A DNA stretch of 64,000 bases from a virus. Below, piece after piece: positions 2,637 to 64,000 of this stretch. The notes beneath the pieces were generated by a model. The model had not been told where the DNA came from and searched no databases. It saw only the letters and a list, made by a program, of their open reading frames with translations. The position numbers and the translations under genes were made by a program. Where the stretch lies: positions 2,293 through 66,292 of IMG/VR virus record IMGVR_UViG_3300029438_000229; one strand, 5' to 3'. Numbering within the stretch: the stretch's first letter is position 1; the number at the start of each line of letters is the position of its first letter.

Positions 2637-2770
2637 AAAAAAGCGGACCTCCCAACATCGGGAAGTCCGCCTTAAAGCGAAATTGTGAATTGTACGAGCG
2701 CAGTCAGCGCCTTAGTAGAATGGTATCTATCGTACAATCTCAATTATATCCGACTCGCACGAAGATGCAA
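2637..2770 (-). promoter_or_regulatory. leader cassette copy 1 (promoter, structured leader, intrinsic terminator)
   Basis: Minus strand: TTGCAT(2770-2765)-16-TATAAT(2748-2743), then TTGTACGATAGATACC, TCGTACAATTCACAATTTCGC, hairpin 2670-2643 and a T-run. Confidence 0.7.
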
Positions 2771-2774
2771 ATGT

Positions 2775-2993
2775 TTAATTGCCCTCATGGAAAAATGTAT
2801 GCGTGAATTCCGGATGCCCAGCAAACACCTTCTCAACGACCTGAGGCAAGTCATGGATATCGTCCAGAATGAGCCGTCCTTGTCTATCGCGATACGGTGC
2901 CACTGCTGCGGTTTTCTCTGCAAAATAAGCGTTAAACGCCTCTTCGCTGTCAAATTCCGGCATTAACGCAATTTCCCGGCTGCGGTCCTTCAT
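2775..2993 (-). CDS. hypothetical protein
   Basis: 72 aa. ATG 2993 preferred over GTG 3002 (GAGG 11 nt upstream). Confidence 0.5.
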   Translation of the reverse strand: MKDRSREIALMPEFDSEEAFNAYFAEKTAAVAPYRDRQGRLILDDIHDLPQVVEKVFAGHPEFTHTFFHEGN

Positions 2994-3009
2994 AATTTGC
3001 ACCGCCTCG

Positions 3010-3447
3010 TCAAACGCCGAGAAGCTCGCGTTCTTCGGCAGTCAGTTTATCGAGAACCTTCTGCCTGCGCTTTTCGCGCGATTCCTGCTTGGTGCTGATG
3101 ATGAAGGTATCGGCGTGGTCGCCATTCCGCACAAAGACGGGACGGTCTTTCAGCATATTCCGCATCGCGTCCAAACGCTCTTCCTTTGTCATGTCATACA
3201 TGCCGGATGCGCCGTAAATGGAAATGTTGATTTCATCCTTTTTCGGGGTCTTATCATAGGCGGTGGGGTCTACGGCGGTGAAATAGAGGGTGTAATAGTA
3301 GCACCTGTCGGCGAGCGCCAACGCGATGGTATCGATATTTCCCTCAAAGACACCAAGGTCGGTGATGGAGCGACCCTCGCAGTCACCCTCCGTGGTGACA
3401 TGCCAGAATCCGTAGGCTTTGTCGTAAGGTTTGTTGAATTCAATCAT
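3010..3447 (-). CDS. hypothetical protein
   Basis: 145-aa ORF in the minus-strand array; no clear SD. Confidence 0.55.
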   Translation of the reverse strand: MIEFNKPYDKAYGFWHVTTEGDCEGRSITDLGVFEGNIDTIALALADRCYYYTLYFTAVDPTAYDKTPKKDEINISIYGASGMYDMTKEERLDAMRNMLKDRPVFVRNGDHADTFIISTKQESREKRRQKVLDKLTAEERELLGV

Positions 3448-3499
3448 TGTAAATCAGGGCAAGGAGACCCGCGACTTTAGGCGTGGGAGGAATTGCCCT

Positions 3500-4222
3500 T
3501 CACATCCTTTCTATTAGATAATTTGTTGCAGGTTCTAATAGCTGCAACTTTTTGAATGAAATACTGTTTGTAACGACAGTGCCATCAAGCTTTCTGAGAG
3601 CAAAGCTTCCTGATGCACGACGACCGGAAACGAAGCACTCTTGCCCCTTGTAGAGAACCTTATCCCAAAGACGATAGCCTTCGACAACATAAGGCATTTG
3701 GCTTCTTTTGCGAATGCTACCTTTTGAGAAGTTTGCTTTATGGGTTTGACGATTGTGATGCCTTATAGCTTTTGTGCGATAGCAAACACTGCATGGTTCA
3801 GCAAATGGATGCTTGCTGATACAACGGGCATCGTTTACATGGCTTTTCTTGATGTCATTTTTCTCTCGCAGATTCAACCGTAATGTGATTTCCTTCTTGC
3901 CCTTTTTCAACTTCTTTTGGAAGCAGTTTGCCATCCATATCGAAAGCTTCGACAAGACAAATTCCGTTTTTTTGCAAACTTGAAGCAAGTCTTTGAATGT
4001 TGCAATACAGCTTACACCGGGGATTGCTACAAACAAATCACCAGACAGATGACTTGCAACAGATGCTTTCAAACCACCTTCTGTAATAAAGATAGTCTTT
4101 TCATCTTTTAAAGGTCTGCTCCAAAACAGTGCTGTATTTTTAGCGGAAGAACCGTTAGGATATCCGGCAGATGTTGCCCAACGGTATCGTTGCTGTTTAA
4201 GCTCTGATGCTTCTTTCCATTT
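3500..4222 (-). pseudogene. chimeric open frame: Toprim-like N-part fused to IscB/RRXRR-family RuvC-III plus C-terminal part
   Basis: The frame is open for 241 codons but has no in-frame start (the SD plus ATG at 4220 is 1 nt out of frame). IFITEGGLKA...AIPGV is Toprim-like. It is followed by SHVNDARCI, NRQTHK and GYRLWDKV..CFVSGRRASGSFALRKLDG, an IscB-like tail. Confidence 0.55.
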
Positions 4223-4266
4223 TTACTCTCCTTGATTTTTGGCTGAAACAACTTGAAATCGCAGTT

Positions 4267-4881
4267 TTAGTTAATATCCCAAATATTCGGGTTATCGTAC
4301 TTGTTAAAGAACTGCATAAATTTGTCTTCCGGCATCTGAGCCTCAGCTTTGTCTAGCATATCGCAAATCTCGGTCTGGTTTGTATTCCCATTCAAGACCT
4401 TAACATAGGTAGCACTTCCGGGATTGGCTCCGATAAAATCAGCAATTGCTGTACGGTTGTGTTCGATGGAATTTTTTAGTTCCCACCAACGCCAAGAACG
4501 GATGCACTGAGTCAGCGACATTCCATCCACTGCTTCCCAGTAATCGCCGCTTTTTTCGACGGCACTGTACTCTTCAATAGGATTCATTCCACCATCTTGG
4601 AGTGCTTCATCAATCATTTCAAGAATCTGGAACGGATAGAGTTTTCCATCAACCTCAACTTCTGCATAATCTAGGTCTTCGTATACCTCAAAGAGAGTGG
4701 CTTCTTCGTCACTATCAAAGGAAAAATCATCATCCTCGACTAATTCCTTCACGAGCTGCGTTTTTCCACTGATGTCAAAGACTTCATGCGTCTGTTTGTT
4801 TACTTTGCAGGGCAAAGTGTGAATACCATCGGAAAAGTGATACTTAACCATTGCATTAACGATATTAGAATTATTAACCAT
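4267..4881 (-). CDS. hypothetical acidic protein
   Basis: 204 aa, AAGGAG SD, visibly AT-richer than the flanks. Confidence 0.6.
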   Translation of the reverse strand: MVNNSNIVNAMVKYHFSDGIHTLPCKVNKQTHEVFDISGKTQLVKELVEDDDFSFDSDEEATLFEVYEDLDYAEVEVDGKLYPFQILEMIDEALQDGGMNPIEEYSAVEKSGDYWEAVDGMSLTQCIRSWRWWELKNSIEHNRTAIADFIGANPGSATYVKVLNGNTNQTEICDMLDKAEAQMPEDKFMQFFNKYDNPNIWDIN

Positions 4882-4925
4882 TTTGTCTGTTCTCCTTAAT
4901 TTTTTATTTTTTTCACCATTGCGTT

Positions 4926-5261
4926 TTAATCAAAAGCGTGAAGAAGCAAATACTCCTTCTTTTTGACTGTGTTTGGATTCATATAATTGCGTGACATCAA
5001 AGGAGGAATTTCTCGTTCCTCTTGTATAACATCTCCAAACAAAGTCATTTGCCCCGCGATGGGAATATTTTTGTTAGCTTTGCTTCTTTTCTTTCGAAGC
5101 CAGATAATATCTGACCTCAGCATATTGAGGACAACGCCATCTGAAACGAAAGATGTTCCATTGCTCCCTTTCAGATATATAGTGTCCCATTTTTTGAAGC
5201 ACTTTTCGATTTCCTTTTGTAACTGATTAAAATCTGTCACATCTGAGTAATCTCTGCGCAT
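4926..5261 (-). CDS. hypothetical protein
   Basis: Track ORF trimmed to ATG 5261 (GAGGG SD). It starts 5 nt after the stop of the upstream fragment. Confidence 0.5.
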   Translation of the reverse strand: MRRDYSDVTDFNQLQKEIEKCFKKWDTIYLKGSNGTSFVSDGVVLNMLRSDIIWLRKKRSKANKNIPIAGQMTLFGDVIQEEREIPPLMSRNYMNPNTVKKKEYLLLHAFD

Positions 5262-8800: not shown

Positions 8801-9097
8801 TCAAGCCGAAGCTTGCGGGTACTGGTCAAGAACATCGTTGAATCGGGAATCTAGGTGCCGGTCATTTTCGTCACGGGCGGGATAACTGAACGCGTTCTCG
8901 TCTGCAGCAGCATCCGTGAATCCGTCCATCATGGTCAGGATACCCTCCATCCAGGCAGCGGCTCTGCCAAACATACCGTTTTCCTGTTCCTTGTTGCGGT
9001 GTAGGTAATCGGTAAGGCTTTCAAGAGCCATCTTCTGCTGATAGAAGGTATCCCAGTTAATGTCTTTGATAGTGTCGAGGTAAGCGTTATCGTCCAT
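8801..9097 (-). CDS. hypothetical protein
   Basis: ATG 9097 lies 10 nt after AAGGAG. The track start 9106 is a TTG only 1 nt after the SD. Confidence 0.6.
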   Translation of the reverse strand: MDDNAYLDTIKDINWDTFYQQKMALESLTDYLHRNKEQENGMFGRAAAWMEGILTMMDGFTDAAADENAFSYPARDENDRHLDSRFNDVLDQYPQASA

Positions 9098-9163: not shown

Positions 9164-9297
9164 CAAAACAAAAAGGCAGGCTCTCCATGTGACTGGAAAG
9201 TCTGCCTTAACGGTTCAGAACTGTGAATGTGTGAATTACCTTTCGGTTGGTATCCATCGTACATTTTTCATTGTATGCGGTTCGCACATTCGCGCAA
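9164..9297 (-). promoter_or_regulatory. leader cassette copy 2 (diverged)
   Basis: TTGCGC-16-TACAAT with GTGCGAAC in the spacer. ATGTACGATGGATACC. Hairpin 9206-9175 plus TTTTTGTTTT. Confidence 0.6.
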
Positions 9298-10849: not shown

Positions 10850-10877
10850 ATTTTATGCGATTCGCAAGTATTGGCAA
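10850..10877 (-). promoter_or_regulatory. phage-type promoter
   Basis: TTGCCA-ATAC-TTGCGAAT-CGCA-TAAAAT. Confidence 0.55.
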
Positions 10878-13640: not shown

Positions 13641-13792
13641 AAAAGAAAAAGGACAGACACCCATGACGAGTGTCTGTCCTTTTCAAGAAAAGAGGATTGT
13701 GAATATGGCTATTGTTGCACTACCTATACAGGTAATGATACTGGTATCTTTGGTACGATTATTATTCTATGCCGTTCGCAAGCGCTGTCAAC
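13641..13792 (-). promoter_or_regulatory. leader cassette copy 3 (diverged)
   Basis: TTGACA-17-TAGAAT with TTGCGAAC. ATCGTACCAAAGATACC, ATTCACAAT. Hairpin 13680-13650 plus a T-run. Confidence 0.6.
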
Positions 13793-15021: not shown

Positions 15022-15140
15022 AAAAAAAGACAGGTCACCCGGTTGGTGCCTGTCTGAATTTTGTCAGGTTGTAAATGGTTGGTCGTGGTTTGGTATCTAT
15101 TGTACAATACTCATTCTATACTGTTCGCAAACGCCGTCAA
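15022..15140 (-). promoter_or_regulatory. leader cassette copy 4 (diverged)
   Basis: TTGACG-16-TAGAAT with TTGCGAAC. TTGTACAATAGATACC. Hairpin 15055-15028 plus TTTTTTT. Confidence 0.6.
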
Positions 15141-15197
15141 GACAACATTTCAAAAGAAAAAGCCGCCCCACCCTGAGAGGTGGAACGGCTGATGAGA

Positions 15198-17522: not shown

Positions 17523-17555
17523 TCAGTTCCTTTCAGTGCAGCCGCCATAGTATCT

Positions 17556-17585
17556 ATCATACAATACATTTGGCGGCATTAGCAA
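17556..17585 (-). promoter_or_regulatory. candidate ligA promoter framed by a 7-bp inverted repeat
   Basis: TTGCTA-18-TATGAT. GCCGCCA (17541-17547) and TGGCGGC (17571-17577) bracket the -10. Contains TTGTATGATAGATAC, which resembles the leader box. Confidence 0.4.
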
Positions 17586-19646: not shown

Positions 19647-19780
19647 CAAAAAGGCGGGCCTCCCAAAATCGGGAAGTCCGCCTTAAAGCAAAATTGTGAA
19701 TTGTACGAACGCAGTTAGCGTCTTAGTAGATGGTATCTATCGTACAATTCTTATTTTATTCGGTTCGCATATCGCGTCAA
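19647..19780 (-). promoter_or_regulatory. leader cassette copy 5
   Basis: TTGACG-16-TAAAAT with ATGCGAAC. Full conserved leader. Hairpin 19682-19653 plus TTTTT. Confidence 0.7.
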
Positions 19781-19824: not shown

Positions 19825-19857
19825 TAAAAGCGGACCTCCCGCTTCGGAAAGTCCGCT
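19825..19857 (-). terminator. intrinsic terminator using the cassette-type hairpin
   Basis: AGCGGACTTTCCG..CGGGAGGTCCGCT plus TTTTAT, after the stop of gene 19878. Confidence 0.6.
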
Positions 19858-21465: not shown

Positions 21466-21493
21466 AGTCTATGCGGTTCGCAAGAATGTGCAA
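21466..21493 (-). promoter_or_regulatory. phage-type promoter
   Basis: TTGCAC-ATTC-TTGCGAAC-CGCA-TAGACT. Confidence 0.55.
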
Positions 21494-22934: not shown

Positions 22935-23072
22935 AAAAGAGCGGACCTCTCAGAATCGAGAAGTCCGCCCTTTAAGCGAAATTGTGAATGTACGAAAGGC
23001 AGAAAGCCTTTTTGATTTGGAATGGTATCTATCGTACAATACCCATTCTACTTAGTTCGCATATTTTGGCAA
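22935..23072 (-). promoter_or_regulatory. leader cassette copy 6
   Basis: TTGCCA-16-TAGAAT with ATGCGAAC. Full conserved leader. Hairpin 22969-22941. The U-tract is short (CTCTTTTC). Confidence 0.65.
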
Positions 23073-25410: not shown

Positions 25411-25549
25411 CAAAAAAGGCGGGCTTCTCATCTGAGAAGTCCGCCCTTTAAGCGAAATTGTGAATTGTACGAAAGGCATAAAACCCTTTCGATATGGGAT
25501 GTTATCTATCGTACAATACCCATTCTATTCAGTTCGCACATTTTGGCAA
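25411..25549 (-). promoter_or_regulatory. leader cassette copy 7
   Basis: TTGCCA-16-TAGAAT with GTGCGAAC. Full conserved leader. Hairpin 25445-25418 plus TTTTTT. Confidence 0.7.
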
Positions 25550-26899: not shown

Positions 26900-27018
26900 T
26901 AAAAAAAGCGGGCCCATCCCCCGAAAGGGATAAGTCCGCTAAAAACGAAATTGTGAATTGTAAGATATCTGGTATCTATCGTACAATTCTATTCTACCGG
27001 TATCGCAAGAACATGCAA
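26900..27018 (-). promoter_or_regulatory. leader cassette copy 8 (short variant)
   Basis: TTGCAT-16-TAGAAT with TTGCGATA. TTGTACGATAGATACC...CTTACAATTCACAATTTCG. Hairpin 26940-26907 plus TTTTTTT. Confidence 0.65.
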
Positions 27019-43774: not shown

Positions 43775-43797
43775 GTAAAATCCTCGCTCCCGGCTAC

Positions 43798-44910: not shown

Positions 44911-44921
44911 GATGACTCCAA

Positions 44922-45921: not shown

Positions 45922-45963
45922 TTTGGCCCTATAAAAAATGAGCGATAAATGCGCGGAATGCAC

Positions 45964-46003
45964 AAAAAACACACGCGCTCATTTATCGAATGCACGCGTG
46001 TGT
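45964..46003 (-). terminator. intrinsic terminator
   Basis: ACACACGCG..CGCGTGTGT stem plus TTTTTTG. Confidence 0.6.
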
Positions 46004-46051
46004 TTAAGATGCTTTTTGTTGGTCTTTGTGCGAAAACAAATAGCGGTATCT

Positions 46052-46909
46052 TCAACGGCTTTGCGCCGCATCGGCGATTCGCTCTTTTGCAACATCAAAA
46101 AAATCGGCATCCTTTTCGATGCCGATAAAGTTTCTATTCGTATTCATTGCCGCCACGCCGGTCGAGCCGCTGCCCATGCAGAAATCGAGGACCGTATCGC
46201 CCTCGTTTGTGTAGCTTTTTATAAGCCACTCACACAACGCCACGGGTTTCTGTGTGCCGTGCGCTGCGCATTTCTGCTTATCTGTGGCAAAGGTCAAAAC
46301 GCTCGTAGGAAATCTCTCAGTGCTGTCGTAGCTTTTTGCCTTGTATTTGCCGTAATCCTCAGTCATCTTGGAGTTCCGCTTATGCTCCGCCGTTGAGACT
46401 TTTCTTGGATGCCCTGAGGTCTTCTGTGGGTTGTAGGTTGGCAGCTTCTTGTAAAAGACCAGGATGTCTTCATGCGCCCTTAGCGGCATCCGGTTCGCGT
46501 TGAGGAATCCTACCGGAGATGTCTTCTGCCAGATGAGGTTGTATCGCCACGGAATGGTCTTGCCATCCATCAGGGTCTTGGTGTACGCTCCCGCCGAAAA
46601 TAGAATCACTGCGCCGTTCTCTGTCAGGATTCTATCCAGCTGCTTCCAAATCCCCTGCTGTTTATTTTCAGTCCAGATAGACATAGCATCAGCATAGGAA
46701 ATCCCCGCCTTGTAGCAGGAAAGAAGAAACTCTGTCAGGCTTAGTCGCTTCCCGTCCTTCATGATGAAATCCTCAAACGGCAATACCGTATCCCAAGCCT
46801 GATGTGTGATACCGTAGGGCGGGTCCGCTAAGACAAGGTTCACGGAATGTGCCGGAATTTCGTTCAGTTTCTCGCAGCAGTCTCCCTGCATCAGCGTAAC
46901 GGTGCTCAT
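46052..46909 (-). CDS. beta-class N4/N6 DNA methyltransferase
   Basis: 285 aa. LADPPYG (motif IV) comes before the C-terminal FCMGSGSTG (motif I). Confidence 0.85.
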   Translation of the reverse strand: MSTVTLMQGDCCEKLNEIPAHSVNLVLADPPYGITHQAWDTVLPFEDFIMKDGKRLSLTEFLLSCYKAGISYADAMSIWTENKQQGIWKQLDRILTENGAVILFSAGAYTKTLMDGKTIPWRYNLIWQKTSPVGFLNANRMPLRAHEDILVFYKKLPTYNPQKTSGHPRKVSTAEHKRNSKMTEDYGKYKAKSYDSTERFPTSVLTFATDKQKCAAHGTQKPVALCEWLIKSYTNEGDTVLDFCMGSGSTGVAAMNTNRNFIGIEKDADFFDVAKERIADAAQSR

Positions 46910-47604: not shown

Positions 47605-47694
47605 AGAAAAATCAAGCCGCAGAGAACAAATCCCTGCGGCTTATACTAAATCACTTTATATTCTCCATTGTATCCAATTCGCACGAATGTGCAA
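47605..47694 (-). promoter_or_regulatory. promoter plus 5'-proximal hairpin/U-tract upstream of micro-ORF 47590
   Basis: TTGCAC(47694-47689)-16-TACAAT(47672-47667) with GTGCGAAT. Hairpin AAGCCGCAG..CTGCGGCTT 47642-47614 plus GATTTTTC. Confidence 0.6.
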
Positions 47695-50972: not shown

Positions 50973-51104
50973 CAAAAAAAGAGCAGACGCACCACTGGGG
51001 TGAATCTGCTCTTCTTCGTCAGAATGTGAATTGTACGGAAGTCGTTTATTATGCTGCTATCTATCGTACAATTATAAGTGTATGCTATTCGCACAGCCTG
51101 GCAA
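50973..51104 (-). promoter_or_regulatory. leader cassette copy 9
   Basis: TTGCCA-16-TACACT with GTGCGAAT. AATTGTACGATAGATAGC...CCGTACAATTCACA. Hairpin 51012-50980 plus TTTTTTT. Confidence 0.65.
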
Positions 51105-52436: not shown

Positions 52437-52464
52437 ATAGTACGCAATTCGCACGAATGGGCAA
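52437..52464 (-). promoter_or_regulatory. phage-type promoter
   Basis: TTGCCC-ATTC-GTGCGAAT-TGCG-TACTAT. Confidence 0.55.
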
Positions 52465-52515: not shown

Positions 52516-54681
52516 TTAAAGATTAAAGATGCCCAGCCAGCGCCGAAACTTGATGCCGAACAATTCCTGTGCCTGCTCGTAGTTCATGATAAGCTGGTTG
52601 CCGCCAGAAATCTCTGCTTCGAGGGAGTTCGGCAGCTCGTCTGCAATGTATTTCAGTTCGTACCAGGGTCCATCCTGCGGGTAGGTATAAATGAGCCGGT
52701 TCTGCTTCTTATCCACCCGGAACTTGCTCGGGTCTGCCTGCCATGCCAGTTCGATTTTCTCAATCGCAGCACGGCCAATGCTCTCATCACCCATGTAGTC
52801 GTTGTAATACAGGATGCGCACATAGTCCGGCAAATCGATTCCGCAAGCCTCGAAGATATCTGCAATGACACTGGACGAAGCGTGGAAGATATCCGGGAAG
52901 TATTCCTTGCCATTCGCATTTTCACGCATTTCCGTCGTCATCTCATCGATGCTAACAAGCATTCGGCGGACATACTCCCCATAGAACGCGGTAGTCAGCT
53001 CCGACATACTCTCATTCACACGCTTCGAGTTCTTGGCACCGCGCTCGTTGTCGATTTTAGCACCGATTCGACAGATGATAGCGCGTTTCGAGAGGTCTTT
53101 CGTCAACGAAGTGATTTTATTGGATGTGATAGATACAGCAGGATAGTTCACGAGCCTATCAGAGATTCCCCATTCATCGTTCTTGATTACCCGTTCTGAA
53201 TGGTTCTGGAACTGGGTCTTGGCGAGGTCGTCGATGTTCAGCGGCAGTCCCTCACATACTCGTTTGAGGCCATCGATTCTTGTGGCTGTAAAATCCTCCG
53301 TTGTGTTCATCTTGACGGTCTCGCCGCACATGAGTTTGACAAGAAATTTTATAAAGGTCGTCTTGCCGCCGTTTGAGTCGCCGTATATAACGCCATACAT
53401 CGGGAACAGTTTGGTGTCGTAATTGTTCCTTGATGCAAAATACCGTAGATACGCCATGAACGGAGTAGCCAGATACCAGGTCATGTACTTAAAGTAGTCT
53501 TTCTTAGCCTGCTCGACATCGCCGTAAAAGTAGTCCATGCCTGAGAAGAACTTCTGGATGCTCTTGATGTTCTTTGCCACCTCGCTGAGATTCGGATTGA
53601 GGTCGATATTCTCGTCGTTGAAGGTCATGGTCCCTGCATCATAGTCGATATGCAGTTTCGGAAGCTGCTTAACAGCCTCAGCTGCTACACGCCGAACCTC
53701 GGTATATCGTTTCGTAAAAACACGCATCGGTTCCGCTGCCACCACAATACGATTCGCCTGTACCGGCATCTTAGGCATAATCGGCTTGACGAGCTCCTGC
53801 ATCTTCTTGACATCGGCGACTATTTCGTATTCTACCTCGTCCTCAGGTTGCGCCTGTTCCAAAAAGATAAGCTTCTGCTTTTCAATGGATTGGAAGACGG
53901 GCACTTCTTTGATGTTCTCTTTCAGATAATCTTCCTGATTCATGGTGTTCACGACTGCCTTATACGAAACGTTGTCGGAGCAGGTCTCCTTGAAGGTCTC
54001 GAACAGAGCCTTATAATGCGAAAATGCCGCCTCGTCATCGAAGCAAACGATATTCTCTCGCTGGATGCCGCAAAACGCCGATGCCGACATATTCGCACTG
54101 CCAGTGATGACTCGGACCCGCTTACGGTCAGCGCTCTCCAAGATGAAGATTTTCTCGTGCGATTTCGTGTCCCGCGATACATACAGTTGTAAGGACCCGT
54201 CATCGAGGCGGTTCGCAAGGATTCCTGCCGACTTAGACTTAGCGAGCTGCTGCACGCTGTCGATTTGCACCGACATGATGGCAGCGATGTCGGTGGCGAT
54301 GATTTTCTCGCATCCGAACACGACTTCCGCATACGAGAACTTGTTGATGACCTTATTCACGAACTCGATTCCGGACGAAAAAGTGATAGCATAGAGTCTG
54401 TCGAACCCGTCAAACAACTCTTCCCAATTCGTTTCGACCGTATCGGCATATATCGCCTTCACAACACTCAGCGCCTGCGTGGAGATGCTCGCCTTTGCCT
54501 TCGTGGTATTGTTCGCCACGAGTTTGAATGGTTTATCCGTCTGCCCTTCACTGTCCCCTGTATCTTCACCGGGGTCCAAGAGTTCTTCCGGGCCTTCTTC
54601 GGTATATTCGGGGCTTTCCGATGCCATCATGTCCATGAGCGACATCTGATTTTCCAAGTCGTTTGCTTTCCTTCGTGCCAT
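52516..54681 (-). CDS. PLD-family nuclease-like domain fused to SF3-type (D5/P4-like) helicase
   Basis: 721 aa. SHEKIF...ITGSANMSASAF is the HxK...GSxN PLD motif. Walker A GDSNGGKTT, Walker B LNIDDL, motif C ITSN. Confidence 0.7.
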   Translation of the reverse strand: MARRKANDLENQMSLMDMMASESPEYTEEGPEELLDPGEDTGDSEGQTDKPFKLVANNTTKAKASISTQALSVVKAIYADTVETNWEELFDGFDRLYAITFSSGIEFVNKVINKFSYAEVVFGCEKIIATDIAAIMSVQIDSVQQLAKSKSAGILANRLDDGSLQLYVSRDTKSHEKIFILESADRKRVRVITGSANMSASAFCGIQRENIVCFDDEAAFSHYKALFETFKETCSDNVSYKAVVNTMNQEDYLKENIKEVPVFQSIEKQKLIFLEQAQPEDEVEYEIVADVKKMQELVKPIMPKMPVQANRIVVAAEPMRVFTKRYTEVRRVAAEAVKQLPKLHIDYDAGTMTFNDENIDLNPNLSEVAKNIKSIQKFFSGMDYFYGDVEQAKKDYFKYMTWYLATPFMAYLRYFASRNNYDTKLFPMYGVIYGDSNGGKTTFIKFLVKLMCGETVKMNTTEDFTATRIDGLKRVCEGLPLNIDDLAKTQFQNHSERVIKNDEWGISDRLVNYPAVSITSNKITSLTKDLSKRAIICRIGAKIDNERGAKNSKRVNESMSELTTAFYGEYVRRMLVSIDEMTTEMRENANGKEYFPDIFHASSSVIADIFEACGIDLPDYVRILYYNDYMGDESIGRAAIEKIELAWQADPSKFRVDKKQNRLIYTYPQDGPWYELKYIADELPNSLEAEISGGNQLIMNYEQAQELFGIKFRRWLGIFNL

Positions 54682-55022: not shown

Positions 55023-55050
55023 ATTGTATGCAATTCGCACGGCTGTGCAA
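55023..55050 (-). promoter_or_regulatory. phage-type promoter far upstream of the PLD/SF3 helicase gene
   Basis: TTGCAC-AGCC-GTGCGAAT-TGCA-TACAAT. The leader is about 330 nt. Confidence 0.55.
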
Positions 55051-56722: not shown

Positions 56723-56841
56723 AGGGCACTTCCTCCTTCCGTCTCAAAGACAATTTGCCGGGACTGTTTCCCGTTGCCCGCTGCTCGCCGCGTGGAGGCT
56801 GTCTTTTGGAACAGCTGCGCGGACAAAACCGCGCTTTTGAG

Positions 56842-58536
56842 TTACATCTCTGCATTGAACAGATTGCGGAGCTTATAGGTAATATCCTCGCTGTTACCGA
56901 CGATAGCTGCCGCCTCGTTGATGGAAGCGAGCTCCGAAAGACTATCCGCTGCGTAGTTGTAGCTGATGGTGTAAATGGGGATATCCATACCGGCAATGAT
57001 GTTCTTCGTATCGGAGAAGTCATATCCGGTATTGTTGTCACCGTCCGTGAGCACAAAGATGATGGGCGTGCAATTCCCACCCAGTTCCTGAGATTTCTGG
57101 TAGATGCGGTCCATTGCCACACAAAGACCGTTGTACATCGCTGTGCTGCCGTTTGCATCGAGGGAGTTCACAGCACCCTTGTACAGGGTTTTCTGGGTCA
57201 GGGAGAACTGGTCGATGGGCAGGTATTCCCTGACATCCGAATCAAAGCCAATAATGCCAATATAGTTGTCGTCATTGATATACTGGATGGTGTTTATCAT
57301 CGCGGTTTTCAGGGCATTCAGGGGTTCGCCGCGCATCGAGCCTGAAGTATCGACAACGAACTCCGCCACGATAGGAATACCGGAATCTTTCTCTTCTTTC
57401 CAGACACTTTGAGCCTGTGCGATGGTGTTGCCGTCATATACCTTGCCAGTATAAGCATAGTCATCGAGGCCATTGAACCCGTCCTTCGTTGCCTCGGCCT
57501 GGTTCTGAGCGCAGAAGGAAACGAAGGCAGCAATAACTTCCTTCTTCTCCGCAGAGACATTCCCGATGGAATACAGAGGATTATCGTGCCGGACACCGAA
57601 CGGGATGAACTCGTAGTTGCGCTGTAATGTCGGGTCATTCTGGTAGGACTGATACTCCATCACGACACCGTCCACGATGCCCTTGTCTGCCGACTGGACC
57701 ATCTGCTGGGTCGTGAAGGATACGAGCGGCACGTTCGCCTGAAATTTCTGGAAATTCTCAACAGCAGCCGTATCGACAATCGTGTCGCTGCCGCTGCTTG
57801 CAAGGGCCGCAAGAAGGAAGTTGAGACCCGTTGCACTCGTATAAGGGTTCGAGTATCCCATCATGAGTTTGCCATCGATGGTTGCGTTCAGAACGGAAGA
57901 AACAGACGCTTCACCGTATTCAGAGCGGAGCATATCCCCTGTCTTCTTCGATACGAGAATACCCGCCACATTGCCGGCCAGACGGTCAGCCTCAACGGTC
58001 AACTCTACGCCCTCGTTCTTCACCAGTTCGCCAAAGAGCGTGTTTGAAGGTGTATAGCACTCAGGCTGATACTTTCCCGTCGAGATGTACTCAGCTGCCG
58101 TACCGGACGGAACGGAGCGCAGAGAGACGCTCATAGTCTTGTCTCCGGAAGTCTTATTGTGCTGGGCGTTGAACTTCTTTGCCATGCTGGTCAGGAAAGA
58201 ATCAGAACCGGATTCTGCTGCTTTCTCGCCGGAAGAGAAGATTTCAATGTTGACATCACCGTTCCCCTCTACCACAAACGGGTAGGAGGAGTCGATATCC
58301 GGCAACTCATCTTTTGCATCCAGAAATTCGGACACATCGAGCTGCTGCGGATTGACGGATACTTCCTGTACCCCGATGCGTTTCATTTTTCCGCTCAAAT
58401 CCGCATACGCCTGTTCTGTCGTCATGGTATTGGTGCTGATATTCGAGTCCCGCATCACCGTCTGGGAGAACACCGCCAATACTACGCCGACGACCGCCAA
58501 GGTCGCCACTATCGGGAACACACCTTTTCTTGCCAT
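56842..58536 (-). CDS. membrane-anchored vWA-domain protein with binding-protein-like middle domain
   Basis: ATG 58536 lies 9 nt after GGAGG. N-terminal TM helix. MIDAS DTSGSM in the C-terminal vWA domain. Confidence 0.8.
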   Translation of the reverse strand: MARKGVFPIVATLAVVGVVLAVFSQTVMRDSNISTNTMTTEQAYADLSGKMKRIGVQEVSVNPQQLDVSEFLDAKDELPDIDSSYPFVVEGNGDVNIEIFSSGEKAAESGSDSFLTSMAKKFNAQHNKTSGDKTMSVSLRSVPSGTAAEYISTGKYQPECYTPSNTLFGELVKNEGVELTVEADRLAGNVAGILVSKKTGDMLRSEYGEASVSSVLNATIDGKLMMGYSNPYTSATGLNFLLAALASSGSDTIVDTAAVENFQKFQANVPLVSFTTQQMVQSADKGIVDGVVMEYQSYQNDPTLQRNYEFIPFGVRHDNPLYSIGNVSAEKKEVIAAFVSFCAQNQAEATKDGFNGLDDYAYTGKVYDGNTIAQAQSVWKEEKDSGIPIVAEFVVDTSGSMRGEPLNALKTAMINTIQYINDDNYIGIIGFDSDVREYLPIDQFSLTQKTLYKGAVNSLDANGSTAMYNGLCVAMDRIYQKSQELGGNCTPIIFVLTDGDNNTGYDFSDTKNIIAGMDIPIYTISYNYAADSLSELASINEAAAIVGNSEDITYKLRNLFNAEM

Positions 58537-61524: not shown

Positions 61525-61750
61525 GAAGGAGGGGGCTTGTAGTCCCGCAGGACTCCAATTTTTTTCCCACTCGACGGACTGTTAGGCACGGTTGCTGTCC
61601 GTGCGACCGAGTACAATGGGCGTTCACCGCTGTTGCAGGCGGCATAGCTGTGGTGAGAATTGGATTATGCGGGATACAGTCCCAATAACCCTACATTGCG
61701 AATGTTTATGGCAGCGTTGTGGTCACGGTTATGTGTCGTGCCGCAGGCGC
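61525..61750 (-). ncRNA. putative TnpB guide-RNA (omega/reRNA) scaffold
   Basis: The expected position is the 3' end of tnpB plus about 140 nt downstream. The region has dense nested hairpins: GCACGG..CCGTGC, CGGAC..GTCCG, GTCC-CGCA-GGAC, CCCCC..GGGGG. Confidence 0.35.
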
Positions 61751-62810
61751 TGCATGTCCAAACGCGGTCAGCAAGCGTGAGGTCGTCTTTTATGAAACCA
61801 CAAACGCTGCAGGTTTTGCTGGACGGATACCACTTATCGATTTTGGCAAAGGTCTTTCCTTGCGATGTGAGTTTATACTCAAGCATCGTGCGGAACATAC
61901 CGAAGCCATTATCGTTTGTGGATTTACCAAGCTTCAGGGAACCAGCCAAACCGCGCAGGTTGATGTCTTCCACAAATACAGCATCATACTGCTTGGCTAT
62001 CGCAGCACTTACCGTATGGCAGAAGTTCTTGCGCTGATTGGCTATATGTTCATGCAAAAGCTGAATTTTATGCAGTTGTTCGTTATAATTTTTAGAGCCC
62101 GCTTCCATACGAGACAGCTTGCGCTGCTCTTTTGCAAGTTTCTCTTCACTCTGACGATAGAATTGCGGATAGTTGGCCACTTTGCCGTTGCTGTCAACAT
62201 AAAAGTCATGGGAAGAATAATCTAAGCCAAGAGATTTCTCTTTGGTGGGAACAATAGGCTGGATATCCTTCTCGAATTCATACAGCAGTGAAACGAAATA
62301 CTTGCCGCTGCGGGTACAGCTGACGGTAGCGCCTTTTAGTACCCAGTCGGCATCCGGTTGACGGTGTACTTTAACTTTTACATTGCCTACCTTTGGCAGA
62401 TGAACAAGATTGCCGACAACATAAACGGTATTCTTGATTTTGCCGTCTTTGCTTTGCGTTTTTTTGTTGTTTGTTGTGTACGACATTTCGTTCCTGTGTT
62501 TGCTTTTCAATCTTGGGACACCAACGGCTTTTGGACTCTCCAGATGCCGCTTGTTTGCATCTTTCAAATCAAGCTGTGTGTTTGCAAGAGCAAGGCTATC
62601 CACCTCTTTCAGAAACGGAAACTCCTTTTTGTATTTGGCAGGCGTAGGAACAAAAAAAGTTCCCGCTTCGTCCAGAAACTGCTGTGCATCTATAAGCATA
62701 TGGTTCCAGATAAAACGTACGCAGCCAAAGGTTTTGGCAAACAGAACCTGCTGTTCTGATGTTGGATACGCACGATATTTTATTGCTCTATTTAGTTTTT
62801 GCACAGGCAC
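61665..62810 (-). CDS. tnpB: TnpB (IS200/IS605-family RuvC-like RNA-guided nuclease)
   Basis: RAIKYRAYPTSEQ...FGCVRFIWN N-terminus. C-terminal CSVCG...CSACG zinc finger plus NRDHNAAINI. GTG 62810 (8 nt after GAAGGTGG) is preferred over the track GTG 62822. Confidence 0.85.
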   Translation of the reverse strand: MPVQKLNRAIKYRAYPTSEQQVLFAKTFGCVRFIWNHMLIDAQQFLDEAGTFFVPTPAKYKKEFPFLKEVDSLALANTQLDLKDANKRHLESPKAVGVPRLKSKHRNEMSYTTNNKKTQSKDGKIKNTVYVVGNLVHLPKVGNVKVKVHRQPDADWVLKGATVSCTRSGKYFVSLLYEFEKDIQPIVPTKEKSLGLDYSSHDFYVDSNGKVANYPQFYRQSEEKLAKEQRKLSRMEAGSKNYNEQLHKIQLLHEHIANQRKNFCHTVSAAIAKQYDAVFVEDINLRGLAGSLKLGKSTNDNGFGMFRTMLEYKLTSQGKTFAKIDKWYPSSKTCSVCGFIKDDLTLADRVWTCSACGTTHNRDHNAAINIRNVGLLGLYPA

Positions 62811-62834
62811 TGCTGTCACCACCTTCTATTATTT

Positions 62835-62862
62835 AGTGTACTCAGTTCGCACATTATATCTA
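62835..62862 (-). promoter_or_regulatory. phage-type promoter directly upstream of tnpB
   Basis: TAGATA-TAAT-GTGCGAAC-TGAG-TACACT. The 14 nt AATGTGCGAACTGA are identical to cassette copy 7. Confidence 0.45.
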
Positions 62863-62871
62863 CTTAAAAGT

Positions 62872-62915
62872 GTAGCAATTCATCCCCCACATAAATGAGG
62901 GAGAATTCTTGCTAC
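62872..62915 (-). terminator. imperfect hairpin after gene 62922 (terminator or IS end structure)
   Basis: GTAGCAA..TTGCTAC outer stem, TCCC/GGGA inner stem, weak U-tract. Confidence 0.35.
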
Positions 62916-62921
62916 ATTTTC

Positions 62922-63509
62922 TTAAATATGGAAAACAGTCCACTCGCGGTTTGGATAATCGTCGCAGAAGCTTGCGAAGGCGAGCGGCGCACCGTTGTCT
63001 TGACTGTCCTTGTTAGAGTGTACGAAGACATTGTAGTCTTCCATGTCCTCAACGTCATCAGCCGTGGCATCTTCGTCAAAGACATCATTGACGCTTTCCG
63101 CAATCAACTCTTTCATTTCCTCAAACGCCTCATCGAAACTGTCGTAGAAGCCCGTAAGCTCGATGCTTTCGTATTCCTCGTAAGAAAGAAGAAAGAAGGG
63201 CTTGTCGGTTGTGACTTCGTAAACGACCCACTCGACACTCTCTTGGTCATCCCCATTCCAGTAGTCATATGTGCTATACGCTCTGGGTTCGCTACTGTCA
63301 GCGTGGCGGTTCTCATCGAAGGTGAAAGAAAAGCCGTAGTGGTCTTCGTTTTCGTGCGTGATATCAGTTCCGGTAAGACCTGCATGATAGTTCTTGTTGA
63401 TGCGCTGTGCCATACTGTCTTTTACTGCGGCGACCGCCTCTTCCAGCGTGTCCTTCTTGCAGATGAGGTTCGTGCAATCATAGTGTTCGCTCTTAATCAC
63501 GATAAACAT
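62922..63509 (-). CDS. hypothetical acidic protein
   Basis: 195 aa; AAAAAGGAGACC SD. Confidence 0.6.
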   Translation of the reverse strand: MFIVIKSEHYDCTNLICKKDTLEEAVAAVKDSMAQRINKNYHAGLTGTDITHENEDHYGFSFTFDENRHADSSEPRAYSTYDYWNGDDQESVEWVVYEVTTDKPFFLLSYEEYESIELTGFYDSFDEAFEEMKELIAESVNDVFDEDATADDVEDMEDYNVFVHSNKDSQDNGAPLAFASFCDDYPNREWTVFHI

Positions 63510-63562
63510 TTTGTGGTCTCCTTTTTGTTATATGATAGTGGCGTGTCGTATAATGCGTGGCA

Positions 63563-63838
63563 TTATACGACCTCGTTGATGGCGTACAAAACCGAGACAG
63601 TCAGCCAATTCGGCGCATAATCCTGACACTCATATATAGCTGCCTCAGTGGTGTCGATATAATACGAGCTGGGAATCGCTTCCTCGTCGCTTCGGTCGAG
63701 GTGGCGCTTTTTGAGCTCTTCCTGATAGTCCGACTGCACAGCGGCATGAGCCGTTTCGATGGACGGGTACTGGTTCGGAAAGATTTTGAGAAACATCTCC
63801 CCTCTTTTGTTGGTAAAAGATTTTGCGAGAATAAACAT
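63563..63838 (-). CDS. hypothetical protein
   Basis: 91 aa; GAAAAGGAG SD. Confidence 0.55.
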   Translation of the reverse strand: MFILAKSFTNKRGEMFLKIFPNQYPSIETAHAAVQSDYQEELKKRHLDRSDEEAIPSSYYIDTTEAAIYECQDYAPNWLTVSVLYAINEVV

Positions 63839-63859
63839 ACGAAACTCCTTTTCTGACGC

Positions 63860-64000
63860 AAAAAAAGGGCGGACCTCCTGTGATTAGGAAGTCCGCCCTT
63901 AAAGCGAAACTATGAATTGTTGTACGAAAGATATTTTTCTTTCCGTGTGAATGTTATCTATCGTACATCTTTCATTCTATGCAACTCGCACAACTTGGCA
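63860..64000 (-). promoter_or_regulatory. leader cassette copy 10 (-35 cut by window end)
   Basis: (T)TGCCA-16-TAGAAT with GTGCGAGT. ATGTACGATAGATAAC...TCGTACAACAATTCATAGTTTCGC. Hairpin 63898-63867 plus TTTTTTT. Confidence 0.65.

What the first reader, a model, noticed from the sequence alone, without database searches (positions are those of the whole stretch)
2637..64000. Ten-copy cassette (promoter, structured leader, intrinsic terminator) placed in front of minus-strand operons: candidate antitermination/attenuation regulon or multicopy small-RNA family
Copies lie at 2637-2770, 9164-9297, 13641-13792, 15022-15140, 19647-19780, 22935-23072, 25411-25549, 26900-27018, 50973-51104 and 63860-64000.

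Read on the minus strand, each copy has this order:
- -35 TTGMCR, a 16-nt spacer, and -10 TAGAAT/TAnAAT.
- About 5 nt later, a near-invariant TTGTACGATAGATACC.
- A short variable hairpin.
- TCGTACAATTCACAATTTCGCTTTAAGG.
- A GC-rich hairpin followed by 5-7 T. Six copies share GGCGGACTTCYC-loop-GRGAAGYCCGCC.
- Only then the SD and start codon.

TTGTACGA and TCGTACAA are complementary. The predicted RNA 5' end is therefore closed into a stem around the variable hairpin. That hairpin changes sequence between copies but keeps its pairing (AAAGGC/GCCTTT, GGCGC/GCGCT, ACGC/GCGT, GAAAGA/TCTTTC). This points to selection at the RNA level.

An intrinsic terminator about 95-115 nt after the start of so many operons only makes sense if it is conditionally overridden. 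The initially transcribed TACGAT/TAGATA is -10-like. The overall logic is a conserved block inside the promoter, a -10-like element just after +1, and a terminator about 100 nt downstream. That is the logic of lambdoid Q-dependent late promoters, which are single-copy. Here the arrangement is distributed genome-wide.

Alternatives:
- A family of roughly 100-nt terminated sRNAs.
- 5' mRNA stabilisers.
- Recombination cassettes of the T4-type PeSL kind. In those the stem-loop precedes the promoter, which is the opposite order.

The same hairpin family also serves as an ordinary 3' terminator at 19825-19857.
Basis: partly seen in the sequence, partly recalled or inferred. Interest (0 to 1): 0.88.

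Follow-up and report, generated by a model that had tools for sequence, protein, structure and literature searches.

The report
Repeated promoter-leader-terminator cassette, gut phage
Ten near-identical control units, each a strong promoter followed by a roughly 100-base folded leader RNA that ends in a transcription stop signal, sit directly in front of gene groups in an uncultured human-gut phage; the same unit recurs hundreds of times in related phage contigs, matches no catalogued RNA family, and probably acts both as an on/off checkpoint for early genes and as a splice point for gene swapping.

Summary
A covariance model scanned without filters finds exactly ten copies, all on the minus strand, at the stated coordinates.

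Each copy has this order:
- a sigma-A-type promoter, TTGnnn-N8-TGCGA-N6-TAnAAT;
- an invariant start, (TT)GTACGATAGATAcCA;
- a covarying hairpin;
- UCGUACAAUUCACAAU;
- a strong intrinsic terminator;
- a ribosome-binding site and start codon about 29 nt later.

The family is absent from Rfam, from deposited phages and from plasmids. It is abundant in uncultured human-gut contigs of up to 370 kb.

New findings:
- The TGCGA spacer block marks a wider promoter class. Eight more such promoters in the window lack the leader.
- The terminator family also occurs alone.
- An outer helix spans the U-run, so read-through RNA appears to be under selection.
- 96% of copies directly precede a co-oriented gene.
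- Identical cassettes join unrelated flanks, which indicates T4 PeSL-like modular shuffling.

Best reading (confidence 0.5): a portable promoter-proximal termination checkpoint whose read-through is conditional, with the conserved 5' module as the recognition site. The antitermination step is inferred; no factor was found. Rivals are a constitutive attenuator or stabiliser and a small-RNA family. I class it as a new variant of known kinds.

The parts
2637..2770 (-). Cassette 1. Promoter 2743-2770, leader 2637-2737, terminator hairpin 2643-2670 plus T6. Start codon of the next gene at 2607.
9170..9297 (-). Cassette 2. Promoter 9270-9297, leader 9170-9264, terminator 9175-9206 plus T5. The closing stem is poorly paired. 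The gene starts 63 nt after the U-run.
13646..13791 (-). Cassette 3, divergent. The motif is TCGTACCAAAGATACC. Terminator 13651-13679. No clear gene with a ribosome-binding site directly behind it.
15022..15140 (-). Cassette 4, short form without the inner hairpin. Terminator 15030-15053 plus T7. It is preceded by a separate terminator at 15161-15190.
19648..19780 (-). Cassette 5, the reference copy. Coordinates: -35 at 19775-19780; TGCGAAC at 19763-19769; -10 at 19753-19758; motif at 19732-19747; closing stem P1 at 19740-19745 with 19703-19708; P2 hairpin at 19727-19739; P3 hairpin at 19709-19721; linker at 19683-19702; terminator at 19653-19682; U-run at 19648-19652; ATG at 19624.
22935..23072 (-). 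Cassette 6. Terminator 22939-22970 plus T4. ATG at 22903.
25412..25549 (-). Cassette 7. Terminator 25418-25445 plus T6. ATG at 25381. A separate upstream terminator ends at about 25556.
26901..27018 (-). Cassette 8, minimal form. The closing stem encloses only one small hairpin. Terminator 26908-26939 plus T7. ATG at 26879.
50974..51104 (-). Cassette 9. Terminator 50981-51011 plus T7. ATG at 50943.
63860..64000 (-). Cassette 10. The -35 is cut by the window end. Terminator 63867-63898 plus T7. ATG at 63838.
19825..19857 (-). Lone terminator of the same GCGGACT hairpin family, placed after the stop codon of the upstream gene and about 50 nt before cassette 5.
10850..10877 (-). Promoter of the same TGCGA class without the leader. 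It is one of eight; the others are 21466-21493, 33042-33069, 36807-36834, 37272-37299, 47667-47694, 52437-52464 and 55023-55050.
17541..17577 (-). Degenerate copy of the motif (TTGTATGATAGATACT) in the loop of a GCCGCCA/TGGCGGC hairpin in front of the NAD-dependent ligase gene. It has no TGCGA promoter and no terminator.

Best explanation
The cassette is a portable transcription-control unit. It heads the short operons of the variable accessory or early gene region of an uncultured human-gut phage, probably with a Clostridia host and a genome above 200 kb.

**Proposed mechanism**
1. Host RNA polymerase starts at a near-consensus sigma-A-type promoter.
2. The first 50-60 transcribed bases fold into a 5'-terminal domain. 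A closing stem GUACGA/UCGUAC encloses an optional hairpin that displays AUACCA and a covarying hairpin.
3. A conserved single-stranded AAUUCACAAU follows.
4. A strong intrinsic terminator then stops most polymerases after 86-113 nt.
5. The gene that begins about 29 nt further on is expressed only by read-through.
6. I propose that read-through is conditional. The invariant 5' module would be the recognition site for an antitermination activity.
   - Most likely it is read at the RNA level, like a nut or put site.
   - Less likely it works as a sigma-dependent pause and loading site of the Q or AlpA kind.
7. About ten operons per 64 kb would therefore switch together.

**Second role**
The roughly 135-bp conserved unit also serves as a homology patch at which genes are exchanged, as in T4-type PeSLs.

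**What is shown and what is inferred**
- Shown: the anatomy, the RNA structure, the tight coupling to a downstream gene, and the recombination junctions.
- Inferred: promoter activity, termination, and above all conditional read-through and its factor.
For: **Copies and anatomy**
- Ten copies, all on the coding strand.
- 229 model hits in 758 kb of related loci.
- 251 of 291 near-matches to the motif carry both promoter and terminator.

**Promoter**
- Promoter pattern TTG-N8-TGCGA-N6-TAnnnT: 17 matches in the window against 0.10 expected, all on the minus strand.

**RNA structure**
- On the 4-bp inner hairpin, 3-4 pairs change on both sides. On the 12-bp terminator, 7-8 pairs do. 92-97% of cells are paired, against 34-48% when partners are slid, and 0 of 500 shuffles reach the observed value.
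- The inner hairpin is at least 4 bp in 115 of 133 copies, against 35% of shuffles, with 42 distinct stems.
- Closing stem: G-C to G.U to A-U in one lineage.
- A conserved U.G wobble and an A.C mismatch in the terminator make it strand-specific, so it acts as RNA.
- Single copies fold as a 5' domain plus terminator, with z-scores of -2.9 to -9.2.

**Read-through matters**
- 174 of 181 distinct contexts have a gene with a ribosome-binding site starting a median of 29 nt after the U-run. There is no room for another promoter.
- A helix whose 3' strand lies beyond the U-run (CGC/GCG, CUGCA/UGCAG, CUGUA/UACAG) is better within cassettes than between them: -4.42 against -3.34 +/- 0.13 kcal/mol.

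**The terminator is not merely the previous operon's terminator**
- 67 of 184 contexts already have a separate terminator abutting the -35.
- Leaderless promoters of the same class use the ordinary terminator-then-promoter order.

**Shuffling**
- 21 of 76 upstream-flank clusters join more than one unrelated downstream flank, and 27 of 68 the reverse.

**Precedents**
- Q and AlpA promoters (PMC9371919).
- Cis-acting RNA antiterminators in Gram-positive mobile elements (PMC8191782, PMC11658703).
- Predominant short 5'-UTR transcripts in phage transcriptomes (PMC10914365).
- PeSLs (PMC2839356).
Against: - No transcription data exist for these phages, so starts, stops and read-through are all predictions.
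- No antiterminator was found. Pfam shows no Q, AlpA, NusG-like or sigma-like protein among 86 window ORFs.
- Genes behind leaderless promoters have no Pfam match, and of the ten most conserved neighbouring gene families only one does, a GmrSD_N domain.
- The leader has no alternative fold that competes with the terminator.
- The closing stem is almost invariant on both strands, so most of its support is conservation rather than covariation.
- Three of the ten window copies lack its 3' strand yet keep the motif.
- The TGCGA block and the terminator family each occur outside the cassette, so only the 5' module is specific to it.
- A constitutive cis-acting antiterminator would make the terminator pointless.
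- A leaky terminator behind a very strong promoter could give adequate expression without any factor.
Confidence: 0.5

Rival explanations
1. **Constitutive attenuator plus 5'-UTR module.** No trans factor is involved. The terminator is simply leaky, so a very strong promoter gives moderate expression. The 5'-terminal stem protects the RNA from 5'-end-dependent nucleases. The single-stranded AAUUCACAAU between two stable domains is a processing site, which leaves the mRNA with the terminator hairpin and outer helix as its protective 5' end.
For: - The closing stem starts within 1-3 nt of the predicted start.
- The conserved A.C mismatch (47 of 108 copies) and U.G wobble (92 of 108) weaken the middle of the terminator stem.
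- The outer helix across the U-run can form only in read-through RNA.
- No regulator was found.
- Phage transcriptomes show many 5'-UTR terminators that give both short and long forms (PMC10914365).
Against: - It does not explain why strong promoters and strong terminators (-16 to -26 kcal/mol, T5-T7) are both kept, when the same genome uses the ordinary terminator-then-promoter layout elsewhere.
- It does not explain the near-invariance of 15 consecutive bases across contigs that differ widely elsewhere in the cassette.
Confidence: 0.2
2. **Multicopy small-RNA family.** The ~100-nt terminated RNA is itself the product. It could be a decoy or sponge for a host RNA-binding protein, nuclease or defence sensor, or a base-pairing regulator. 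Tens of copies behind strong promoters would give a very high dose early in infection. Expression of the downstream genes would be a by-product.
For: - The anatomy is that of a classical small RNA: a 5' stem-loop domain, an A/U-rich single-stranded stretch, and a terminator with a U tail.
- About a third of copies are bracketed by terminators on both sides.
- Promoter and terminator are both strongly conserved.
- Abundant short 5'-UTR-derived RNAs exist in phiKZ and other phages (PMC10914365).
Against: - 96% of copies sit at a fixed short distance in front of a co-oriented gene that has no other promoter.
- A helix that needs sequence beyond the U-run is maintained.
- No site complementary to the conserved single-stranded blocks occurs on the sense strand of the window. 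Host targets could not be tested.
Confidence: 0.15
3. **Q- or AlpA-type antitermination in the strict sense.** A phage DNA-binding protein sits on the TGCGA block between -35 and -10. It loads onto polymerase paused by sigma at the -10-like TACGAT in the first transcribed bases, and then blocks terminator hairpin formation. This is a sub-case of the best explanation, listed separately because it was the first reader's proposal.
For: - All three DNA landmarks are present at the right relative positions (PMC9371919).
- In front of the ligase gene, a generic scan reads the variant TATGAT of the same motif as a -10 element.
- The motif stays invariant even in copies that lack the stem partner.
Against: - TGCGA is shared by eight promoters that have neither the motif nor, in six cases, any leader terminator.
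- The conserved RNA structure, and AAUUCACAAU at about +50 to +60, have no role in this mechanism.
- No Q, AlpA or other candidate protein family was found in the window.
- Known systems control one or two promoters.
Confidence: 0.12
4. **Recombination linker or selfish repeat only.** The conservation reflects spread and gene conversion of a repeat that carries a promoter and a terminator. The leader has no function of its own.
For: - Identical cassettes join unrelated flanks.
- Truncated cassettes have breakpoints in the inner hairpin loop or just after GATAG.
- PeSLs provide a precedent (PMC2839356).
Against: - Gene conversion would homogenise the hairpins. Instead they vary with compensating changes next to invariant blocks.
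- Orientation and distance to the next gene are fixed.
- There are no terminal inverted repeats or target duplications as in a MITE.
Confidence: 0.03

Closest known systems
PeSL (promoter-early stem-loop) cassettes of T4-type phages (PMC2839356, PMC4122927)
   Same: - Both are composite, conserved units of about 100 bp.
- Both combine a strong host-type early promoter with a stem-loop terminator.
[quoted passage not shown]
- Both are concentrated in variable regions full of small genes of unknown function.
- Both act as junctions where unrelated genes are exchanged.
   Different: - In PeSLs the stem-loop lies upstream of, inside, or just before the start of the promoter. It terminates incoming transcription.
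- Here the terminator lies 60-100 nt downstream of the start, behind a conserved structured leader, so it also stops the cassette's own transcripts.
- The sequences are unrelated.
- The host group differs.
- Mini-circles were not testable here.
Q-dependent late promoters of lambdoid phages, and the AlpA-dependent alpB promoter (PMC9388147, PMC9371919)
   Same: - A conserved element between -35 and -10.
- A -10-like hexamer (TACGAT; lambda has AACGAT, from my own knowledge) in the first transcribed bases.
- An intrinsic terminator downstream that must be bypassed for gene expression.
   Different: - The known systems are single-copy or two-copy. Here there are ten in 64 kb.
- The spacer element also occurs at promoters without the other two landmarks.
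- The RNA structure is under selection.
- No Q or AlpA homologue was found.
- Pausing was not tested.
RNA-dependent antitermination sites: lambda N/nut, HK022 put, conAn2 of pLS20-type plasmids, canT of Tn916 (PMC8191782, PMC11658703)
   Same: - A structured RNA element lies between a promoter and the terminators it overrides.
- The pairing of a hairpin with a conserved single-stranded stretch recalls boxB plus boxA.
- conAn2 alone works on terminators placed immediately downstream.
- The setting is a Gram-positive mobile element.
   Different: - There is no sequence or model similarity to any of them (Rfam).
- conAn2 is 260-600 nt long and single-copy, at the head of one long operon.
- Here the element is about 60 nt long and repeated at every short operon, each with its own terminator.
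- Activity is untested.
5'-UTR premature termination and 5'-UTR-derived non-coding RNA candidates in virulent Pseudomonas phages, e.g. phiKZ T102 (PMC10914365)
   Same: - A terminator immediately downstream of a phage promoter.
- Two outcomes: a predominant short RNA under 250 nt, or a long mRNA.
- Many instances per genome; phiKZ has 17 candidates.
   Different: - Those cases were found experimentally, and that paper does not describe them as one conserved sequence family.
- Here a single family is conserved across hundreds of copies and many genomes, but no expression data exist.

Membership tests
PeSL-type mobile regulatory cassette | A host sigma-70/sigma-A-type early promoter inside a conserved intergenic unit | tested here: met
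   TTGnnn-16-TAnAAT in all copies. The pattern gives 17 matches against 0.10 expected. Promoter activity itself was not measured.
PeSL-type mobile regulatory cassette | A stem-loop terminator within the unit, positioned upstream of or within the promoter, or just before the start site | tested here: not met
   The conserved terminator lies 60-100 nt downstream of the predicted start. Only 67 of 184 contexts also have a stem-loop abutting the -35.
PeSL-type mobile regulatory cassette | Located in variable regions between small non-essential genes, and marking insertion, deletion or replacement junctions | tested here: met
   21 of 76 upstream-flank clusters join more than one downstream cluster, and 27 of 68 the reverse. 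The neighbouring genes are mostly genes of unknown function and methylases.
PeSL-type mobile regulatory cassette | Formation of mini-circles by recombination between cassettes | not testable with these tools
   This needs inverse PCR or long reads from infected cells.
Q/AlpA-type promoter-proximal antitermination | A factor-binding element between -35 and -10 that is specific to the regulated promoter | tested here: inconclusive
   The TGCGA block is at the right place. However, it is shared with eight promoters that lack the leader.
Q/AlpA-type promoter-proximal antitermination | A -10-like element in the first transcribed bases that causes a sigma-dependent pause | tested here: inconclusive
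   TACGAT at about +3 to +8 is near-invariant. Its variant TATGAT is scored as a -10 in front of the ligase gene. Pausing cannot be tested in silico.
Q/AlpA-type promoter-proximal antitermination | An intrinsic terminator downstream of the promoter and upstream of the regulated genes | tested here: met
   Hairpins of -16 to -26 kcal/mol followed by T4-T7, ending at +86 to +113. The gene starts 21-63 nt later.
Q/AlpA-type promoter-proximal antitermination | A Q- or AlpA-family protein encoded by the element | tested here: not met
   No such Pfam family among 86 window ORFs. Only 64 kb of a genome probably above 200 kb was examined.
Cis-acting RNA antiterminator (put, EAR, conAn2, canT) or nut site | A conserved RNA secondary structure between the promoter and the terminator | tested here: met
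   The closing stem is 99.7% paired. The inner hairpin covaries. An optional hairpin displays AUACCA in 69% of copies, against 34% of shuffles.
Cis-acting RNA antiterminator (put, EAR, conAn2, canT) or nut site | Sequence or model similarity to a described element | tested here: not met
   No Rfam match at gathering score, and nothing better than E = 0.6 in a sensitive scan.
Cis-acting RNA antiterminator (put, EAR, conAn2, canT) or nut site | Demonstrated read-through of terminators that depends on the element | not testable with these tools
   This needs reporter assays or in vitro transcription.
Trans-acting small RNA | An independent transcription unit, not tied to a downstream gene | tested here: not met
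   174 of 181 contexts have a co-oriented gene starting a median of 29 nt after the U-run.
Trans-acting small RNA | Complementary target sites | tested here: inconclusive
   There are none on the sense strand of the window for the conserved single-stranded blocks. Host genomes were not searchable for this.
MITE or other non-autonomous transposon | Terminal inverted repeats with target-site duplication, inserted in either orientation | tested here: not met
   All copies are co-oriented with the genes. The inverted repeat is internal and its spacing varies from 13 to 45 nt. No flanking duplications were seen.

The most novel reading that the evidence does not exclude
The invariant 5' module is the loading site of a dedicated antitermination system, either RNA-based or an RNA-protein pair. 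It operates at tens of operon heads at once. That would make it a distributed nut/put-like regulon that switches the whole accessory and anti-defence gene set of abundant human-gut jumbo phages. Until the switch, the same units would flood the cell with a ~100-nt leader RNA. No known antitermination system is organised this way; the described ones act from one or two sites per genome.
Probability: 0.3. Interest if true: 0.8.

Novelty: new variant of a known kind. Interest (0 to 1): 0.6.

Why it matters
- These contigs come from many independent human-gut assemblies, some above 230 kb. The phages have no cultured relative and almost no annotated early genes.
- The cassette gives a ready sequence handle on their transcription programme. 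It marks operon starts, predicts a co-regulated early gene set rich in DNA methylases and small acidic proteins (likely anti-defence functions), and marks the junctions where such genes are swapped.
- If read-through proves conditional, this would be the first antitermination system spread over tens of sites. It would also be a compact (~135 bp) promoter-plus-checkpoint part for engineering Gram-positive gut bacteria.
- If it is only a leaky attenuator, it is still a new, well-supported structured RNA family that deserves a database entry.

Tried and rejected
**Database and literature searches that found nothing**
- Rfam, at gathering score on the whole window and in a sensitive scan of one copy: no family.
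- BLAST of a 20-kb stretch and of one cassette against deposited phages, and of the cassette against plasmids: no match.
- Literature search for the motif sequence: no paper.
- General searches for repeated phage leaders or gut jumbo-phage regulatory motifs: nothing specific.

**Search for a regulator**
- Pfam on 86 window ORFs gave methylases, GmrSD_N, hydrolases, sortase, radical SAM, HNH, VWA and HTH_3. No Q, AlpA, NusG-like or sigma-like family appeared.
- Ten further window proteins, nine of them ORFs near or downstream of leaderless TGCGA promoters, plus the 721-aa ORF 52516-54681: the nine have no Pfam match and the tenth has only PLD-like nuclease domains.
- Of the ten most conserved gene families near cassettes in related loci, nine have no Pfam match and one is GmrSD_N.
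- A small protein with an arginine-rich motif turned up in related loci but not in the window. It was not pursued.

**Mechanistic ideas tested and dropped**
- Riboswitch-like alternative fold: the minimum-energy and centroid structures always keep the terminator, with no competing pairing.
- Leader peptide: reading frames are broken by insertions and deletions in the variable region.
- Base-pairing seed: no complementary sites on sense transcripts of the window.

**Attempts to get transcript ends or a host**
- Contigs carrying the downstream protein, and a metagenome scan for the motif, returned only genomic assemblies.
- Host from genome collections: only one multi-hit record, labelled Clostridiales by its submitters, which may itself be a binned phage.

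**Method note**
- RNAalifold on a plain MAFFT alignment recovered only the terminator, because insertions and deletions misalign the 5' domain. A hand-set structure and a covariance-model alignment were used instead.

Full report
**1. The observation**

The 16-mer TTGTACGATAGATACC occurs 12 times at up to 3 mismatches, against 0.26 expected. I read all sites on the minus strand. I then built a covariance model from 54 diverse related copies (alignment A2; model R1) and scanned the window with all filters off.

The remaining weak hits are opposite-strand overlaps of the palindromic parts, or lone terminators.

Every copy has the described order. Leaders run 86-113 nt from the first T of the motif to the end of the U-run. 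Terminator hairpins fold at -16 to -26 kcal/mol and are followed by four to seven T.

Single-sequence folding gives a 5' domain plus terminator, with z-scores of -2.9 to -9.2. Seven of ten copies form the closing stem.

- The long 28-mer is conserved in only three copies.
- Three copies lack a good 3' partner for the closing stem.
- The 3' terminator arm is mostly GGGAGG rather than GRGAAG.

**2. Distribution elsewhere**

- The exact 16-mer is present in more than 117 stretches of IMG/VR contigs of 25-268 kb.
- It is present in more than 120 stretches of metagenome contigs. Many are labelled human gut, and several are 230-370 kb long.
- In 596 Gb of prokaryotic genomes, only one record has many copies: a 224-kb contig of a bin labelled Clostridiales.
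- The model finds 229 copies in 758 kb of these loci, often every 1-2 kb.
- Of 291 near-matches to the motif, 251 have both the promoter and a run of at least five T. Most of the rest are chance hits in unrelated sequence or copies with four T.
- There are 151 distinct cassette sequences.
- Nothing similar exists in Rfam, in 50,697 deposited phage genomes, or in 72,556 plasmids. The motif appears in no paper in the library.
- The window holds an NAD-dependent ligase, a UvrD-like helicase, four or more DNA methylases, two GmrSD_N proteins, hydrolases, a sortase, HNH and PLD nucleases, an IS605-type transposase and many small acidic proteins of unknown function. Essentially all genes are on one strand.
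- I read this as the early or accessory region of a large uncultured phage whose host uses sigma-A-type promoters and strong AGGAG ribosome-binding sites.

**3. Anatomy in detail**

*Promoter.* TTGcc at -33 and TAnAAT at -11 (numbered from the first T of the motif), separated by a 16-nt spacer that contains TGCGAa at a fixed position. With 5 nt between the -10 and the motif, the start should fall on T2 or G3. The first two T vary without compensation, which fits a start at about G3.

*5' domain.* The closing stem GUACGA/UCGUAC is paired in 99.7% of cells but hardly varies. One lineage shows the path G-C, G.U, A-U (TTGTACGA..TCGTATCA in L040 and L045; TTATACGA..TCGTATCA in L225).

Inside the stem, UAGAU often pairs with a following AUCUA, or a shorter version of it, so that AUACCA sits in a loop. 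This happens in 69% of copies against 34% of shuffles.

Next to the 3' strand lies a 4-6 bp hairpin with 42 distinct stem sequences. It is present in 115 of 133 copies, against 35% of shuffles. Three to four of its pairs change on both sides.

*Linker and terminator.* AAUUCACAAU follows and is almost invariant. The terminator covaries at 7-8 of 12 pairs. It keeps a U.G wobble in 92 of 108 copies, and an A that is mismatched with C in 47 of 108. These features show that it works as RNA of this strand, with a deliberately imperfect stem.

*Outer helix.* A short outer helix brackets the terminator and its U-run: CGC with GCG, CUGCA with UGCAG, CUGUA with UACAG. Within-cassette duplex energy is -4.42 kcal/mol, against -3.34 +/- 0.13 for shuffled partners. 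Relatedness inflates this statistic, but the compensating variants are visible by eye. Because the 3' strand lies beyond the U-run, this helix can exist only in read-through RNA.

**4. Three separable modules**

- The promoter pattern TTG-N8-TGCGA-N6-TAnnnT occurs 17 times in the window, against 0.10 expected, always on the minus strand.
- Eight of these promoters have no motif (10877, 21493, 33069, 36834, 37299, 47694, 52464, 55050).
- Six of the eight lead to genes without a detectable leader terminator; several lie directly upstream of a start codon. Two (33069, before the helicase, and 47694) have unrelated leader hairpins with U-runs.
- The GCGGACT hairpin also ends an ordinary gene at 19825-19857.
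- In IMG/VR, 75 of 104 distinct promoters matching GTGCGAAC-N4-TAGAAT are followed by the motif. Several others carry variants or different leaders.
- Only the 5' module is therefore specific to the cassette, and it is never found without both promoter and terminator, except in truncated copies.

**5. Relation to genes**

- In 174 of 181 distinct downstream contexts, an ORF of at least 40 codons with a ribosome-binding site starts a median of 29 nt after the U-run (interquartile range 24-34). These genes have no room for a promoter of their own, so they depend on read-through.
- A separate terminator abuts the -35 in 67 of 184 upstream contexts. In the rest, the upstream gene runs straight into the cassette, so the leader terminator also ends the preceding operon.

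**6. Gene shuffling**

I clustered the 120 nt upstream of the cassette and the 120 nt downstream of the ribosome-binding-site region. 21 of 76 upstream clusters are joined to more than one unrelated downstream cluster, and 27 of 68 the reverse. Identity ends at the promoter or just after the terminator. Truncated cassettes have breakpoints inside the inner hairpin loop (L024) or after GATAG (L269). This is the behaviour described for PeSLs in T4-type phages (PMC2839356, PMC4122927).

**7. How it most likely works**

- Shown: the anatomy, RNA-level selection on both the terminated part and the read-through form, obligatory coupling to a downstream gene, and recombination at the unit.
- Inferred from established knowledge of sigma-A promoters and intrinsic terminators: polymerase starts at the motif, and most transcripts stop after about 100 nt.

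A promoter placed in front of a strong, conserved terminator makes sense only under one of two conditions: the short RNA is wanted, or termination can be overridden. This holds all the more because the same genome elsewhere uses the ordinary terminator-then-promoter order.

The fixed position before genes and the helix across the U-run favour the second condition. I therefore commit to a promoter-proximal checkpoint with conditional read-through (confidence 0.5).

Within that reading I favour recognition of the RNA module, like nut or put sites or the conAn2 and canT elements of Gram-positive mobile elements (PMC8191782, PMC11658703), at about 0.3. This accounts for all the conserved transcribed features and leaves TGCGA as a general promoter mark.

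The Q/AlpA-type reading (PMC9371919) fits the three DNA landmarks. It does not explain the RNA structure or the leaderless TGCGA promoters, so I give it about 0.12.

A fully constitutive cis-acting antiterminator is unlikely, because it would make the terminator useless.

**8. Rivals**

- A factor-free leaky attenuator combined with a 5' stabiliser and a processing site (0.2).
- A multicopy small-RNA family (0.15).
- A mere recombination repeat (0.03).

Experimental work on Pseudomonas phages shows that terminators just after promoters, giving mostly short RNAs plus some full-length mRNA, are common. There are 42 such cases, and more than 90% of transcripts stop at phiKZ T102 (PMC10914365). 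The phenomenon itself is therefore not new. What is new is a single conserved, structured, mobile family.

**9. What could not be done**

No expression data were reachable; the contig look-ups returned only genomic assemblies. No regulator was identified. Only 64 kb of a genome probably above 200 kb was available.

**10. Verdict**

This is a real and highly non-random multi-copy regulatory RNA and promoter cassette. I class it as a new variant that combines known kinds: a PeSL-like mobile promoter-terminator unit and a promoter-proximal termination checkpoint. Interest 0.6.

Noticed in passing
window 56746-56815 (-): A full-length match to the Rfam HDV-like ribozyme family of Faecalibacterium prausnitzii (RF02682): 57.2 bits against a threshold of 44, E 6.5e-8. 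It starts 26 nt after the stop codon of a 564-aa ORF of unknown function (56842-58536).
   Followed up: partly
window 10850-10877, 21466-21493, 33042-33069, 36807-36834, 37272-37299, 47667-47694, 52437-52464, 55023-55050 (all -): Eight promoters of the same TGCGA-spacer class that lack the conserved leader. They tend to have TTGCAC at -35 and TACAAT at -10, so they may be a second temporal class.
   Followed up: partly
window 32985-33041 and 47611-47666 (-): Two of the leaderless-class promoters, before the helicase gene and before a small ORF, are followed by unrelated hairpins with U-runs. Promoter-proximal terminators are therefore a wider habit of this genome.
   Followed up: no
window 17541-17577 (-): A degenerate copy of the motif (TTGTATGATAGATACT) sits in the loop of a 7-bp GC hairpin directly before the NAD-dependent ligase start. 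A generic scan reads its TATGAT as the -10 of a TTGCTA-18-TATGAT promoter.
   Followed up: partly
L024 4178-4236 (+), with the ORF at 4462-4833; also L269: Natural truncated cassettes. In L024 the leader breaks inside the inner hairpin loop and continues into AT-rich foreign sequence with a 123-aa ORF. In L269 it breaks right after GATAG.
   Followed up: partly
window 61665-62822 (-): An IS605/TnpB-type transposase gene (PHROG 506, E 3e-105) lies in the operon headed by the cassette at 63968.
   Followed up: no
upstream of many cassettes, e.g. window 25556-25590 and 15161-15190 (-); L003 and L024 upstream flanks: A second conserved terminator family (GCCGCTCATCTTCGGATGAGCGGC followed by T6) directly abuts the -35 in about a third of contexts. 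Its T-run may double as an upstream promoter element.
   Followed up: partly
window: first genes after cassettes, e.g. 63563-63838, 62922-63509, 22646-22903, 25070-25381, 2107-2607, 8801-9097: The genes directly behind cassettes are mostly small, very acidic proteins (pI 4.1-4.9) with no family match, as expected for early host-takeover or DNA-mimic proteins. Two neighbouring ORFs (25731-26879, 27272-28036) start with lipoprotein-type signal peptides.
   Followed up: no
related loci, e.g. L049 (oriented 1892-2167), L072 (4689-4973), L092 (9944-10219): A conserved 91-94-aa protein with an arginine-rich stretch GRRRR[ML][FY]SK occurs in 23 related loci but not in the window. It is a possible RNA-binding candidate.
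   Followed up: no
window 38025-46909 (-): A dense cluster of DNA-modification and nuclease genes: an EcoRI-type adenine methylase, two C5 cytosine methylases, an N6/N4 methylase, GmrSD_N proteins and an HNH endonuclease. This suggests an anti-restriction island.
   Followed up: no
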